Of a stretch of DNA of 64,000 nt, positions 12,716 to 46,153 are shown piece by piece. The notes under the pieces were generated by a model. That model was not told the origin of the DNA, did no database searches, and saw nothing but the letters and a program-made list of their open reading frames with translations. The stretch comes from a virus: the IMG/VR virus record IMGVR_UViG_3300015242_000023, positions 1,802 to 65,801 of that record; one strand, 5' to 3'. The translations under genes were made by a program, and so were the position numbers. How positions within the stretch are numbered: position 1 is the first letter of the stretch; every line of letters begins with the position of its first letter.

Positions 12716-12909
12716 GCCACATGCGCGTCTGGAGCAACGGAAGCACCCTCTATTTCGCTGGCCAATTCTCGGCCGACGATGCCGCGTTCATTGAGCCGTT
12801 GGCCTTCCAATATGGCATGTCTCGTCCTGAGCAAGCGCACCAGCAGGCCACTAAACTCGCATGGGCGTTCAAGAGCATTTGCGAGCGCGTTGCCAAGGAC
12901 ACCAAATGA
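12712..12909 (+). CDS. Hypothetical protein
   Basis: RBS GGAGAGG; ATGA overlaps. Confidence 0.5.
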   Translation: MSHMRVWSNGSTLYFAGQFSADDAAFIEPLAFQYGMSRPEQAHQQATKLAWAFKSICERVAKDTK

Positions 12910-14177
12910 ACGACATCTTTCAGCCCCCCGCCTACAACGATACGCCGCTCAGCCAGCCACCGACGGACGGCCGTATACAGACGCCGCAGATGGGGGCCCA
13001 GCAACTAACCCAGATCGGGGCGAACGCGGCCAAAAACGGCCTAGTCGACGTGGCTCGCGTCGCATTCACGCGCGCCGTGAGAGAGGAGCGACGTGGCGAT
13101 ACCCTGGCAAACTTGGCCAACGCACTGCGGCAGCTTTGGCGGTTCGACGAGGCCAACAAGATCATCGATGAAGCGCTTCAATTCGCGCCCCAGGACGGCC
13201 GGGTGTGGGGCATCAAGGGCGTCACCATGCTGGACCAGAACCGGTCAACGGACGCCATCGCCGCCTTTCGAAACTCGCTGATGTGGGGCGGCGCCGCTCC
13301 CTTTACCAAGTTCGGCTTGGCTGAGGCGCAGCTCCATGCCGGCGACTTCGACCGCGGCCTGAGGGGCTACGAATCCCGGTTTGAGATAAACTCGCCTCGC
13401 CTTCATGGCCTCCCCCGGTGGCAGGGAGAACCATTGGGCGACAAGGTGCTGCTGGTCGAGGCCGAACAAGGCTTTGGCGACACTTTCATGTTTAGCCGCT
13501 TCCTGCCTCGCATCCCAGGGAACTATATCTTCAGCGTCCAAGCGCAGGCAGTGAGTCTGTTCGGACCGGAGGCGAAGCGGCTGGGCGAAGCAGTGCGCGC
13601 TGATTACTGGTGCCCTCTCATGAGTCTACCGCTGATCGTCGGCACCGACATCACGCCCGCGCTGGCTTTCCGGCCTAACCGCATCCTGCCGCTGACGGCG
13701 CGCGGCAAATTCAACATCGGCATTGTCTGGGCATCCAAGGCAGGAGGGTCCGGCACTCCCGAAGAAATGCGCCACGGCCTGCAGAAGTCATGCCCGATCG
13801 AGGCCTTCCTTGATCTTTGCGACATCGACGGCGTCCAACTGCACAGCCTGCAGTACGATCAGGATGCCAGCCTGATGACGATGGACCTCGTTAACCAACT
13901 TCCCCAATACGACTTCCGCGACCAGGCCGCGCACATGCTCAACATGGACCTGATCATCAGCGTGGACACCGCACCGCTGCATCTGGCCGGGACGCTCGGG
14001 CGTCCGTGCATCGCGCTGTTGAACGTGGTTGGAAGCTGGCAATGGGGTTCTGGAGATACCACGCCTTGGTACAAATCAGTCCGGATCGTGCGGCAGCCAA
14101 AGCCGTTTGACTGGTCCGGAGCGATGGCCAAAGCGAAGGATATCGTGGTCGAGATGATGGGGGAGCACAAGCCATGA
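12906..14177 (+). CDS. TPR-containing GT-B (GT9/heptosyltransferase-like) glycosyltransferase
   Basis: N-terminal TPR helices; EAEQGFGDTFMFSRF and DLIISVDTAPLHLAGTLGRP motifs. Confidence 0.85.
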   Translation: MNDIFQPPAYNDTPLSQPPTDGRIQTPQMGAQQLTQIGANAAKNGLVDVARVAFTRAVREERRGDTLANLANALRQLWRFDEANKIIDEALQFAPQDGRVWGIKGVTMLDQNRSTDAIAAFRNSLMWGGAAPFTKFGLAEAQLHAGDFDRGLRGYESRFEINSPRLHGLPRWQGEPLGDKVLLVEAEQGFGDTFMFSRFLPRIPGNYIFSVQAQAVSLFGPEAKRLGEAVRADYWCPLMSLPLIVGTDITPALAFRPNRILPLTARGKFNIGIVWASKAGGSGTPEEMRHGLQKSCPIEAFLDLCDIDGVQLHSLQYDQDASLMTMDLVNQLPQYDFRDQAAHMLNMDLIISVDTAPLHLAGTLGRPCIALLNVVGSWQWGSGDTTPWYKSVRIVRQPKPFDWSGAMAKAKDIVVEMMGEHKP

Positions 14178-14368
14178 CCGAGAATGAAGCCAAGACCAAG
14201 CATTGCTGCGGGCCAGAGGGCACTGGAAGCAAAGGGCCTCCAGACAACGACGGCACATGCGATCGTTACTGCATCGGCTCTGCCTGCATGGCATGGCGTG
14301 TGAAGAGACTCCCTGATGGCGATCAGTACGGCTTCTGCGGGCTCGTAGGTCTGGCAGGCAAGCCATGA
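14174..14368 (+). CDS. Small Cys-rich hypothetical protein
   Basis: CC...C..YCIGSACMAW...GFCGL. Confidence 0.55.
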   Translation: MTENEAKTKHCCGPEGTGSKGPPDNDGTCDRYCIGSACMAWRVKRLPDGDQYGFCGLVGLAGKP

Positions 14369-14580
14369 TCGGCGGCATCACCGAGCCGCCGCGCCGTTAT
14401 CTCGAACATGAATGGCATTGGCTTCACAGCGAGCGCGCATCCCGACCGGTGATCTCACAATGGATCAAGGGCGGTTGGTATAGCCCGGGTGAGCACGGCC
14501 CGATTTCCCCGCAGGAGATGTGGCGCCGCGGTTGGGCCTATCTGGGGCCTGTTCCAGTACCGCCAGGAGATTGGGGATGA
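14365..14580 (+). CDS. Trp-rich hypothetical protein
   Basis: ATGA overlaps at both ends. Confidence 0.5.
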   Translation: MIGGITEPPRRYLEHEWHWLHSERASRPVISQWIKGGWYSPGEHGPISPQEMWRRGWAYLGPVPVPPGDWG

Positions 14581-15863
14581 TCGATTTCAGCAACGCGCGC
14601 GTCGCCGTCGTGGGCGACCTGATCGAGGACCATTGGATTTACGGCCGCGTCGATCGGCTGTCGCCCGAGGGGCCGTGGCCAGTGTTCCTGCCGGAGCGAA
14701 CGGTCGTGCAGATGGGCGGCGCGGCGAATGTGGCCGCCAACATGTACGCGCTGGGTGTGACGCCAGTGCAGATCGCCCCGAACCGAATGGCGATCAAGGA
14801 ACGCTATGTCGTCGGCCGGCACCAGATGTTCCGCGTCGACCGGGAAAACACATCGAACATTTCGAGCCAGGAGATGATCCGCCTATTCATCGCTCTCACG
14901 GAGGGCACCCAACAGCCGAATGTCGTGGTGCTGAGCGATTACGGGAAAGGCTGCTTTGGTGGCACCTTGGCGCAGTGCATCATTGAATGGTGCATGCCCC
15001 GCGGCATCGTCACCGTCGTCGATCCTAAGGGAACCGATTGGACCAAGTACGACGGTGCCACCGTCATTACGCCGAACTATGCCGAGTGGAAGGCCCATCA
15101 GCGCGGCGGCCGCGCGCGTCTGCTCGTGACCAAGGGTGAGCACGGCATAGAACTGCAGGGTGATGGCAGCGACGGCAGGCATTGGATCAACATCCCCGCT
15201 GCCGGCCCGAAGGTGGTCGATATCGTCGGCGCCGGCGACGTGGTCGTTGCTGCGCTCGCCCTGGCGTTGGGTGCAGGCTATTCCATGGAAGAAGCAGCCC
15301 GCATCGCCAACGCCGCAGCCGGTGTCGCCGTAGGCAAGCCCGGCACGTCTGTGTGCACGATCGACGAACTGAGAGGTGCTTGGGTAAGCGGGTGTAGCTC
15401 AGCGGTAGAGCAGCGGTCTCCAAAACCGACGACGGGGGTTCGAGTCCCTCCGCCCGCGCCACTCGTTGGAATCGCCAACGGCTGTTTCGACACCCTGCAT
15501 GCCGGCCACGTCGAGCTCCTGCAGAAGGCAAGGGCGCGCTGCGACCGACTGATAGTCGCCATCAATAGCGATGCATCGACGCGACACCTAAAGGGCCCTC
15601 TGCGGCCGGTAAATCCAATGGCTGTGCGCTGCGCCATGCTCCAGGCATTGGCATGCGTCGGTGAGGTCCGCGTCTACGATCAGGAGGAGGATCTGGTCGA
15701 CATCATCAAGGAGGTAGGGGCCTCGGTGATCTTCAAGGGCGTCGACTACGAGGGCCACCCCACCATCACCGGCAGCGATATCGCCCGCGTCGAGATCATC
15801 AAGACCGAGTTCAAATCGTCCACCGCGCAGGAAGTCTGCAAGGCTCGAGGAGTTTGGTCTTGA
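14577..15863 (+). CDS. hldE: Bifunctional heptose-7-phosphate kinase / heptose-1-phosphate adenylyltransferase
   Basis: PfkB kinase motifs (VVGD, RLSPEGP, GGAANVAAN, LSDYGKG, VDPKG, TPN, GAGD) fused to a nucleotidyltransferase (NGCFDTLHAGH, INSDAS, KGVDY). Confidence 0.9.
   Translation: MIDFSNARVAVVGDLIEDHWIYGRVDRLSPEGPWPVFLPERTVVQMGGAANVAANMYALGVTPVQIAPNRMAIKERYVVGRHQMFRVDRENTSNISSQEMIRLFIALTEGTQQPNVVVLSDYGKGCFGGTLAQCIIEWCMPRGIVTVVDPKGTDWTKYDGATVITPNYAEWKAHQRGGRARLLVTKGEHGIELQGDGSDGRHWINIPAAGPKVVDIVGAGDVVVAALALALGAGYSMEEAARIANAAAGVAVGKPGTSVCTIDELRGAWVSGCSSAVEQRSPKPTTGVRVPPPAPLVGIANGCFDTLHAGHVELLQKARARCDRLIVAINSDASTRHLKGPLRPVNPMAVRCAMLQALACVGEVRVYDQEEDLVDIIKEVGASVIFKGVDYEGHPTITGSDIARVEIIKTEFKSSTAQEVCKARGVWS
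15388..15461 (+). tRNA. trnW: tRNA-Trp(CCA), nested in frame inside hldE
   Basis: Acceptor GCGGGTG/CGCCCGC, D arm GCTC-AGCGGTA-GAGC, anticodon loop CTCCAAA, T arm GGGGG-TTCGAGT-CCCTC, G73 discriminator, encoded CCA. Confidence 0.9.
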
Positions 15864-16060
15864 ATCTGATGGAAGGACTGGCGCGACAGTTAGTGCGAGT
15901 TGCCAAGGCCCGGCGGCACTATGAGGACATCGGGCCGAGCGGCGCATTCGGGCTGATGATGATCGATCGAGCCCTTGAGATGGCATGTGTGGCTGCGGGC
16001 AGCAATGACATTGTCGAGATGATGCGCGCTCACGAGGACCTAAAAGGCATCAGCGAATGA
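15854..16060 (+). CDS. Hypothetical protein
   Basis: RBS GAGGAG; coupled to hldD. Confidence 0.55.
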   Translation: MVLNLMEGLARQLVRVAKARRHYEDIGPSGAFGLMMIDRALEMACVAAGSNDIVEMMRAHEDLKGISE

Positions 16061-16860
16061 TCATTTGCACCGGAGTGTCCGGATTCATCGGACGCCATCT
16101 GACCAAAGCGCTCAATGCTGATTGGGTTCCGGGCCAAGTGCCTCTTTTGCGCGAGGCGGACGCGCTGATCCATCTCGGCGGCATATCCGATACCACATGC
16201 AAGGACGAGCAACGGCTGATCGAGGCGAATGTGAAGCTGACGTTGGAACTCGCCGACTCGGCCGCCGACGCTGGAATTCCGTTCATCTATGCGAGCAGCG
16301 CCAGCATTTACGGAAATGGACGCGGACCGCTCAATGCCTACGCCCGATCGAAGGCGGCGATTGATGCCTCCATGGCGAACCGATCGGACGAATGGTATGG
16401 GCTGCGGCTCTTCAATGTCTACGGCGACGGTGAGGGCAAGAAGGGCGACCAGGCCAGCATGGTCTACAAGGCCGTCTGGTCGCATCGGAATGGCAAGACG
16501 CCCGAATTTTTCACACCGAAAGCGCGCCGCGATTATGTCCACGTCAGCGACGTCGTGAAGGTGATCCTGTGGTTCGTGCGCACTTGCCCACGGAGTGGCG
16601 TCTATGACGTCGGGACTGGCGAATCGACATCGATCAAGGAAGTCTGCGATCTGGCTCAAGACATATCGCCATTCATTAGACGGATGGCGGCGACCGAGAT
16701 GAGGGGAATGTACAAGCATCCGTCTCTCACCGAAATACCCGTGCCGTCGCACATGTTCTGCGCCTGCCAGATGGACACCAAGGCCGATCTCACCCGGCTG
16801 CGCAGCATCGGCTATGACGCACCGTTTCTGTCTCTCGAGGAAGGAATCAAACTGCTATGA
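16057..16860 (+). CDS. hldD: ADP-L-glycero-D-manno-heptose 6-epimerase-like NAD-dependent epimerase
   Basis: TGVSGFIG Rossmann motif, HLGGISDTT, YASSASIYG, YARSK, LRLFNVYG, KGDQASMV, RDYVHVSDV. Confidence 0.85.
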   Translation: MIICTGVSGFIGRHLTKALNADWVPGQVPLLREADALIHLGGISDTTCKDEQRLIEANVKLTLELADSAADAGIPFIYASSASIYGNGRGPLNAYARSKAAIDASMANRSDEWYGLRLFNVYGDGEGKKGDQASMVYKAVWSHRNGKTPEFFTPKARRDYVHVSDVVKVILWFVRTCPRSGVYDVGTGESTSIKEVCDLAQDISPFIRRMAATEMRGMYKHPSLTEIPVPSHMFCACQMDTKADLTRLRSIGYDAPFLSLEEGIKLL

Positions 16861-46076: not shown

Positions 46077-46153
46077 TGGCTGCCGGGAGGCGGAATTGAA
46101 CCGACGACCTGAACCCTGGCGGGGTCCCGCTCTACCGACTGAGCTATCCCGAT
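46077..46153 (-). tRNA. Non-canonical tRNA-Gly(GCC)-like RNA
   Basis: D arm GCTC-AGTCGGTA-GAGC, anticodon arm GGACC-CCGCCAG-GGTTC, T loop TTCAATT, 3' CCA; has C33, a 1:72 mismatch and one extra base before CCA. Confidence 0.7.

What the first reader, a model, noticed from the sequence alone, without database searches (positions are those of the whole stretch)
15388..15461. A complete tRNA-Trp gene is the in-frame interdomain linker of hldE
Seen: a full 74-nt cloverleaf with G73 and encoded CCA lies on the same strand inside the 14577-15863 ORF, between the kinase end (GTSVCTIDELRGAW) and the nucleotidyltransferase start (LVGIANGCFDTLHAGH). It translates without a stop as SGCSSAVEQRSPKPTTGVRVPPPAP and occupies the place of the normal HldE linker. 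Established: tRNA maturation (RNase P and 3' trimming) cuts the precursor, so each transcript yields either tRNA or full-length protein. Inference: dual-coded sequence acting as a built-in processing switch that cleaves the glycosylation operon mRNA, or as compact tRNA supply. Retention of both the reading frame and the base pairing suggests selection on both.
Basis: partly seen in the sequence, partly recalled or inferred. Interest (0 to 1): 0.9.

Follow-up and report, generated by a model that had tools for sequence, protein, structure and literature searches.

The report
tRNA gene nested inside phage HldE
A complete tryptophan tRNA gene lies in frame in the flexible linker between the two enzyme halves of a soil phage's sugar-activating protein, so this DNA is read as protein and probably also serves as a tRNA gene; this layout is rare and has one published bacterial precedent.

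Summary
ARAGORN and Rfam (66.8 bits, cut-off 29) call a tRNA-Trp(CCA) at 15388-15461 (+). It lies inside the 428-aa HldE-like ORF 14577-15863, exactly between the kinase and nucleotidyltransferase (NT) domains.

It is not an assembly artefact. A roughly 97% identical strain from an independent soil study spans it without gaps. A diverged contig, L027 (93.6% identical around the tRNA, 81-87% elsewhere), has the same layout.

The ORF is translated through the tRNA:
- The NT domain has dN/dS of about 0.08 between the window and L027.
- There is no start codon between the tRNA and the NT motif, and the kinase part has no stop.
- AlphaFold folds both domains with confidence and leaves the tRNA-coded residues disordered.

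More distant relatives lack the tRNA. Their junction is a short fused linker, two overlapping genes, or holds an HNH endonuclease gene, so the tRNA is an insertion at an insertion-prone junction.

The tRNA segment changed at 2 of 74 bases, against 14% at neighbouring four-fold sites (P=0.001). This argues for RNA-level constraint, but one L027 change breaks a D-stem pair.

Whether the tRNA is processed, and whether that acts as a switch, is untested. The published precedent is selC nested in selB (Mukai 2021). This scan has also noted tRNAs nested in phage primase-helicase linkers on other DNA.

The parts
14577..15863 (+). HldE-like bifunctional ORF (428 aa): heptose-7-phosphate kinase, tRNA-coded linker, heptose-1-phosphate adenylyltransferase
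   Evidence: The ORF is listed. Pfam finds PfkB and CTP_transf_like, both above their cut-offs. NCBIfam finds HldE, domain I and domain II, as the best hits but below the equivalog cut-offs. The ATG at 14577 overlaps the upstream stop as ATGA, and the N-terminus MIDFS matches relatives.
14577..15386 (+). Kinase (PfkB, HldE domain I) part, residues 1-270, with no stop codon of its own
   Evidence: dN/dS of its last 64 codons against L027 is 0.14. The AF2 pLDDT is above 90.
15388..15461 (+). tRNA-Trp(CCA), 74 nt, with G73 and an encoded CCA. It is read in frame as residues 271-295, the disordered linker.
   Evidence: ARAGORN calls it and Rfam scores it 66.8 bits. Its minimum-energy fold is the cloverleaf. 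L027 differs at 2 of 74 bases. AF2 gives residues 274-292 a pLDDT below 50.
15462..15863 (+). Nucleotidyltransferase (HldE domain II) part, with the NGCFD..HAGH motif and no in-frame ATG, GTG or TTG between the tRNA and the motif
   Evidence: Against L027 there are 15 synonymous and 4 non-synonymous changes, dN/dS 0.08.
12861..14177 (+). Upstream operon gene: TPR plus GT9 (heptosyltransferase-like) protein
   Evidence: Pfam finds TPR_2 and Glyco_transf_9. Its stop overlaps the next start by 4 nt.
14174..14580 (+). Two small coupled ORFs (64 and 71 aa) directly upstream of hldE. This segment varies between strains.
   Evidence: The ORFs are and have no Pfam hit. X3 and X4 contigs replace 14368-14569 with 179 other letters. 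L027 has an HNH_3 gene here.
15860..16860 (+). Downstream coupled genes: a 66-aa ORF (TTG overlapping the hldE stop) and an HldD-like epimerase (16057-16860)
   Evidence: The gene calls come from the identical ENA contig. Pfam finds Epimerase and GDP_Man_Dehyd.

Best explanation
This is a genuine nested gene. A tRNA-Trp gene was inserted at the boundary between the kinase and adenylyltransferase modules of a phage ADP-heptose operon whose genes all overlap by 4 nt.

The insertion survived because it lies in the one open tRNA frame and joins both modules in frame. The ribosome therefore reads the 74 nt as a 25-residue disordered linker and makes a working bifunctional HldE-like enzyme. This much is shown by sequence comparison.

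The same 74 nt most likely still work as a tRNA gene. When an operon transcript is not covered by ribosomes, the cloverleaf folds. Host RNase P and 3' trimming then release tRNA-Trp, leaving a non-stop kinase fragment and a start-less NT fragment. This part is inferred from established tRNA maturation and was not observed.

The either/or outcome is probably a by-product of where the tRNA landed. It is probably not a purpose-built switch.
For: The layout is real:
- An identical 47-kb ENA contig and a Logan contig carry it.
- A 1566-nt contig from a different 2024 soil study spans 14635-16200 with 41 substitutions and no gap.
- JGI contig L027 has the same layout at 93.6% local identity.

It is translated through:
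- The NT domain has 15 synonymous and 4 non-synonymous differences, dN/dS 0.08.
- No start codon lies after the tRNA and no stop lies before it.
- Both domains have pLDDT above 90 and the tRNA-coded residues 274-292 are below 50.

It is an insertion:
- Relatives L002 and L101 have a short fused linker. L003 and L004 have two genes with an ATGA overlap. L005 has an HNH_3 gene at the junction. None of them has a tRNA.

The tRNA is constrained:
- It scores 66.8 bits with all stems intact except G27.A43.
- It has 2 of 74 differences against 16 of 112 at flanking four-fold sites, P=0.001. None of its 18 four-fold sites changed.
- The non-tRNA linker codons changed at 3 of 18 bases, Fisher P=0.05.
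- G1-C72 and C2-G71 replace the usual A1-U72 and G2-C71 as paired double changes.

No promoter or terminator was found near the tRNA, so it is expressed within the operon transcript.
Against: There is no RNA evidence at all. No run on record as RNA holds the stretch.

Only two diverged lineages exist, so covariation cannot be tested.

In L027 one change, GAG to GAA, is silent in the protein but turns the conserved C11-G24 D-stem pair into C.A. This lowers the Rfam score to 58.5 bits and loses the cloverleaf as the minimum-energy fold.

G27.A43 is a derived mismatch. Other tRNA-Trp sequences have C43.

G1-C72 departs from the A1-U72 usual in bacterial tRNA-Trp (my own knowledge for the identity role).

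Compared with all flank sites (6.9% changed), the tRNA's 2.7% is not significantly lower, P=0.11. Constraint on the peptide cannot be excluded.
Confidence: 0.55

Rival explanations
1. Exapted relic. A tRNA gene was inserted and is now only linker-coding DNA. It is no longer matured or charged, and it still looks like a tRNA because the insertion is young or the peptide is mildly constrained.
For: The derived G27.A43 mismatch is shared by both lineages. L027 lost the C11-G24 pair through a change that is silent for the protein. G1-C72 is atypical for tRNA-Trp. The conservation is no stronger than in the catalytic domains, P=0.11. There is no expression evidence.
Against: The window copy scores 66.8 bits, higher than a bona fide bacterial tRNA-Trp from soil (58.6 bits), and keeps the universal D-loop, T-loop and anticodon-loop bases. 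A disordered linker that relatives do without should drift near the neutral rate. About 10 changes are expected and 2 are seen, P=0.001.
Confidence: 0.28
2. Selected processing switch. The nested tRNA is kept because RNase P cleavage tunes how much HldE and downstream glycosylation enzyme is made, or times it against tRNA supply.
For: Cleavage would cut a translationally coupled operon in two and leave a non-stop kinase message. The same logic was proposed for selC in selB (PMC8124441). The layout is retained across about 7-19% nucleotide divergence.
Against: Four related lineages run the same operon without it. tRNA-Trp has no functional tie to heptose activation. The junction also takes up selfish HNH genes, so the placement looks opportunistic. 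Nothing here measures regulation.
Confidence: 0.12
3. Two separate genes, kinase and NT, with an ordinary intergenic tRNA between them. On this reading the long ORF is a chance read-through.
For: Relatives L003 and L004 do have two genes. Stand-alone NT genes start 0-7 nt after a tRNA in other phage contigs.
Against: The kinase has no stop. No ATG, GTG or TTG lies in frame between the tRNA and NGCFD, in either the window or L027. The NT domain is under strong purifying selection.
Confidence: 0.03
4. Assembly chimera or sequencing artefact at a conserved tRNA word.
For: De Bruijn contigs of X3 and X4 break inside the tRNA, where bacterial tRNA reads pile up.
Against: Single contigs span it in at least three independent data sets, with strain-level and species-level differences in both flanks and no indel.
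Confidence: 0.01

Closest known systems
selC (tRNA-Sec) nested in the selB ORF of Alphaproteobacteria (Mukai 2021, PMC8124441; bioinformatic prediction, called there the first nested tRNA in a bacterial ORF)
   Same: In both cases a whole tRNA lies on the coding strand inside an ORF and is translated in frame, in an operon with overlapping stop and start codons. The proposed consequence is also the same: processing gives a non-stop upstream message and a crippled downstream one, so tRNA and full-length protein are alternatives.
   Different: There the tRNA forms a C-terminal extension with no protein domain behind it, and the tRNA is the ligand of the protein that hosts it. Here it lies between two catalytic domains, so the second domain can only be made by reading through. 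The host is a phage, and the tRNA (Trp) is unrelated to the enzyme's function.
tRNA(CAU) genes nested in frame in the linker of phage primase-helicase genes
   Same: Both are in phages, with a complete tRNA on the same strand and in frame at a domain junction or flexible linker.
   Different: The host protein and the tRNA differ. That case was reported in about fifty phages. This one was found in only two diverged lineages plus near-identical strains.
tRNA genes overlapping protein genes in compact mitochondrial genomes (Armadillidium vulgare, Doublet et al. 2015, as cited in PMC8124441)
   Same: One transcript serves both as tRNA precursor and as mRNA, with competition between processing and translation.
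   Different: That is an organelle under extreme compaction with degenerate tRNAs. Here the tRNA is canonical and the 70-kb phage genome has ordinary intergenic space elsewhere.
Bacterial HldE (RfaE) and split HldA/HldC
   Same: The domain order is the same, kinase then adenylyltransferase, with the same catalytic motifs. Fused and split forms both occur among this phage clade's relatives.
   Different: Identity to bacterial HldE is about 40% and scores fall below NCBIfam's equivalog cut-offs. The clade lacks the bacterial linker of about 30 residues, and in this phage a tRNA gene supplies 25 residues in that place.

Membership tests
tRNA (Rfam RF00005) | Cloverleaf covariance-model score at or above the gathering score of 29 bits over the full model | tested here: met
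   The window scores 66.8 bits over model positions 1-71. L027 scores 58.5 bits. ARAGORN calls both.
tRNA-Trp (bacterial type) | Anticodon CCA and discriminator G73 | tested here: met
   The anticodon loop is CUCCAAA, and G precedes the encoded CCA.
tRNA-Trp (bacterial type) | A1-U72 first pair, as in most bacterial tRNA-Trp (a minor identity element; from my own knowledge) | tested here: not met
   The window and L027 have G1-C72 and C2-G71. The soil, RpAliso and CcrBL9 tRNA-Trp sequences have A1-U72. Phage B1VFA also has G1-C72.
tRNA-Trp (bacterial type) | Matured by RNase P and 3' trimming and charged by TrpRS | not testable with these tools
   No RNA run holds the stretch.
HldE bifunctional heptose kinase/adenylyltransferase (NCBIfam NF008454, TIGR02198, TIGR02199) | Score at or above the curated equivalog cut-off | tested here: not met
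   The scores are 274 bits against a cut-off of 521, 228 against 345, and 106 against 181.5. These are the best hits but fall below the cut-offs, so I call the protein HldE-like.
HldE bifunctional heptose kinase/adenylyltransferase | A PfkB kinase domain followed by a cytidylyltransferase-like domain with the (T/A)NGCFDxxHxGH motif in one polypeptide | tested here: met
   Pfam finds PfkB at 58.9 bits and CTP_transf_like at 61.1 bits, both above their cut-offs. The motif and the GAGD kinase motif are invariant in the alignment of 58 sequences.
Nested tRNA in a protein ORF (selB-selC type, PMC8124441) | The entire tRNA lies on the sense strand inside the ORF and is read without a stop | tested here: met
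   The same holds in L027.
Nested tRNA in a protein ORF (selB-selC type, PMC8124441) | The tRNA forms a C-terminal extension that ends at a stop overlapping the next start, and the tRNA is the protein's own ligand | tested here: not met
   Here the tRNA is internal, with 134 codons of a catalytic domain behind it, and tRNA-Trp is unrelated to HldE.

The most novel reading that the evidence does not exclude
The 74 nt are under dual selection, and nested tRNAs in linker codons are a recurrent phage strategy. On this reading the tRNA enters protein linkers precisely from +1 to CCA. The linker DNA of relative L101 resembles the joined ends of the acceptor stem, which hints at microhomology-guided insertion. 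RNase P cleavage then makes tRNA supply and operon expression mutually exclusive, giving the phage a translation-sensitive switch over its heptose-glycosylation genes.
Probability: 0.15. Interest if true: 0.8.

Novelty: new variant of a known kind. Interest (0 to 1): 0.6.

Why it matters
Overlapping RNA and protein genes on the same strand are almost unknown in bacteria and phages, and standard annotation hides them. IMG masked the tRNA in L027 and left hldE uncalled apart from an 81-aa fragment.

In this case a catalytic domain can only be made by translating through a tRNA. It therefore offers a clean system for two questions. The first is how ribosome traffic and RNase P compete for one RNA. 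The second is how much sequence freedom a tRNA leaves a protein linker, and the reverse.

It also shows how a tRNA can settle in a tightly coupled operon without breaking it. If the tRNA proves inactive, it is still a documented case of a tRNA gene recruited as protein linker sequence.

Tried and rejected
- IMG/VR, protein scans. Scans with the single protein and with a clade alignment gave no close relative.
- IMG/VR, DNA pattern. A pattern of T-loop plus NGCFD gave only a chance match without a tRNA.
- IMG/VR, tRNA 5' 22-mer. It hit 36 phage contigs, but all match only the first 23-28 nt, so they do not hold this tRNA-Trp.
- Genome contigs with the clade alignment. No prophage or host relative was found, so the host stays unknown. 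An alphaproteobacterium is only suggested by the nearest HldE and tRNA-Trp hits.
- Metagenome pattern scan. Of 49 matches, 15 lie beside a tRNA. My back-of-envelope estimate gives about 14 by chance. Only L027 is the same arrangement, and L029 is a bacterial tRNA-Trp followed by a chance NGCFD and a stop.
- Sequencing runs. No RNA holder was found. In the laid contigs, differences inside the tRNA are hidden, because bacterial tRNA contigs raise the depth there above the 10% reporting share. The X2-X4 strains therefore could not add to the tRNA comparison.
- Neighbour-gene search with HldD. It found only two lineages above 60% identity. L099 has a run of N exactly at the junction.
- Literature. 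Four full-text searches found no phage case and only Mukai 2021 for bacteria. Two candidate phage papers were irrelevant.
- Own promoter or terminator for the tRNA. None was found.
- Codon-demand argument. Trp is 1.5% of residues in long ORFs, which I judge unremarkable from general knowledge, so I dropped this argument.

Full report
**Observation**

ARAGORN reports two tRNAs in the window. One is tRNA-Trp(CCA) at 15388-15461 on the + strand. Rfam's tRNA model scores it 66.8 bits against a gathering score of 29, E=3.4e-14, over the full model, with one non-standard pair, G27.A43. Alone and within 148 nt of context its minimum-energy fold is the cloverleaf.

The + strand ORF from the ATG at 14577 to the stop at 15863 runs straight through the tRNA. 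Frames 1 and 2 of the tRNA hit TAG in the D loop. Frame 3 is open, and it is the frame that continues from the kinase and into the nucleotidyltransferase (NT).

Pfam finds PfkB and CTP_transf_like. NCBIfam's best hits are HldE and its two domain models, all below the equivalog cut-offs. The tRNA codes residues 271-295, between the end of domain I (268) and the start of domain II (297).

The window is bases 1802-65801 of a 69.8-kb IMG/VR virus record from soil. CheckV rates it complete.

**The layout is not an artefact**

- An ENA contig of 47 kb is 100% identical over 7.3 kb and carries the same 428-aa gene call.
- A Logan contig from a different 2024 soil study covers 14635-16200 in one piece, with 41 substitutions and no gap.
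- A pattern scan of JGI metagenomes (T-loop, 15-45 nt, then NGCFD codons) found contig L027 (8.5 kb). It has a tRNA-Trp at 1715-1788 inside an open hldE frame.
- L027 is 93.6% identical to the window over 15193-15863 without gaps, and 81-87% identical elsewhere.

**The ORF is translated through the tRNA**

Both lineages carry the tRNA, so their differences arose after the insertion.

- The NT domain behind the tRNA has 15 synonymous and 4 non-synonymous differences, dN/dS 0.08. The last 64 kinase codons give 0.14.
- No ATG, GTG or TTG lies in frame between the tRNA and the NGCFD motif, in either lineage. The kinase part has no stop. The NT domain can therefore only be made by reading through.
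- AlphaFold2 with 58 sequences gives a mean pLDDT of 88.8. Both domains are above 90, and residues 274-292 are below 50 and without secondary structure, as expected for a free linker.

**The tRNA is an insertion at a labile junction**

The nearest homologues are about 60% identical and share the window's gene order of TPR glycosyltransferase, small ORFs, kinase, NT and epimerase. They show three other junction states:

- L002 and L101 have a short fused linker.
- L003 and L004 have two genes whose stop and start overlap as ATGA.
- L005 has an HNH_3 endonuclease gene right after the kinase stop.

None of these has a tRNA. L027 also has an HNH_3 gene abutting the hldE start.

In the window every gene from 12861 to 16860 overlaps its neighbour by 4 nt, so the operon has no intergenic room. 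An in-frame fusion is the simplest way for a tRNA to sit here without cutting off the NT domain. This is inference.

**Is the tRNA still a gene?**

Evidence for:
- The window and L027 differ at 2 of 74 tRNA bases. Flanking four-fold degenerate sites differ at 16 of 112 (14.3%).
- Under neutral drift, 2 or fewer changes has P=0.001. None of the 18 four-fold sites inside the tRNA changed.
- The few linker codons outside the tRNA changed at 3 of 18 bases, Fisher P=0.05.
- Relatives do without this peptide and it is predicted disordered, so protein-level constraint is an unlikely cause. RNA-level constraint is the simpler reading.
- The acceptor stem carries paired double differences from other tRNA-Trp sequences: G1-C72 and C2-G71 instead of A1-U72 and G2-C71.

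Evidence against:
- One L027 change (GAG to GAA, silent in the protein) turns C11-G24 into C.A. This drops the Rfam score to 58.5 bits and loses the cloverleaf as the minimum-energy fold. The other change lies in a variable T-loop position and changes Val to Phe.
- G27.A43 is derived and shared by both lineages.
- Against all flank sites (6.9% changed), the tRNA's conservation is not significant, P=0.11.
- No RNA data exist.

I put a live tRNA at roughly 60-65%.

**Mechanism**

No promoter-like or terminator-like site flanks the tRNA, so it is transcribed within the operon message.

Established tRNA maturation (RNase P at +1, trimming after the encoded CCA) would leave two fragments. One is a kinase message without a stop, which would be a substrate for trans-translation. 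The other is an NT fragment without a start. One transcript therefore gives either the tRNA or the enzyme. That consequence is logical, but it is unobserved.

Nothing indicates that it is a tuned switch:
- Relatives manage the same operon without it.
- tRNA-Trp has no link to heptose chemistry.
- The genome's other tRNA is ordinarily intergenic.

**Comparison with what is known**

Mukai 2021 (PMC8124441) predicted selC nested in the selB ORF of Alphaproteobacteria and proposed the same either/or model. The paper called it the first nested tRNA in a bacterial ORF. There the tRNA is a C-terminal extension and is the ligand of its host protein. Here it is internal, a catalytic domain depends on read-through, and the host is a phage.

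Earlier notes of this scan report tRNA(CAU) genes in phage primase-helicase linkers and a tRNA-His in a nuclease gene. I did not check those. My literature searches found no published phage case.

Among 357 tRNAs in the DNA fetched here, no other lies inside a real ORF.

**Verdict**

The nested, translated arrangement is solid. tRNA function is probable but unproven. The 'switch' reading is speculative. I class this as a new variant of a known but very rare kind.

Noticed in passing
L005:910-1281; L027:458-889; L002:225-713: HNH_3 homing-endonuclease genes cluster around this phage clade's hldE. In L005 one sits exactly at the kinase/NT junction where the window has the tRNA. In L027 one abuts the hldE start. 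In L002 one lies just upstream on the other strand.
   Followed up: partly
L098 (= L027) 889-1945: IMG's gene calls leave hldE uncalled around the tRNA, with only an 81-aa fragment at 1945-2190. Nested tRNAs therefore hide their host ORFs from protein databases. This explains why L027's protein was missing from the first protein search.
   Followed up: partly
L023:1484-1593; L048:4114-4229 (= L022); L011:855-961: In three tRNA-rich metagenome contigs a stand-alone HldC-like nucleotidyltransferase gene (NGCFDxLHxGH) starts 0-7 nt after the 3' end of a tRNA gene (Pro, Met, Leu), leaving no room for a ribosome-binding site outside the tRNA.
   Followed up: no
window 14368-14569: Contigs of the ~97% strain (runs X3 and X4) replace this 200-nt stretch, the small ORF just upstream of hldE, with 179 unrelated letters. 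It is a strain-variable cassette next to the nested tRNA.
   Followed up: no
L101:545-565 versus window 15387-15461: The short linker DNA of relative L101 (AGCGGCAAGCCGGCG, coding SGKPA) resembles the joined ends of the tRNA acceptor stem (AGCGGG...CCCGCG, coding SG...PA). This could be microhomology at the insertion point, or chance in GC-rich DNA.
   Followed up: no
window 46081-46153 (-): The second tRNA, Gly-GCC at 46 bits, is ordinarily intergenic between minus-strand ORFs.
   Followed up: partly
L099:1238-1247: A related NCBI metagenome contig has a run of N exactly at the kinase/NT junction, so its junction state is unknown.
   Followed up: no
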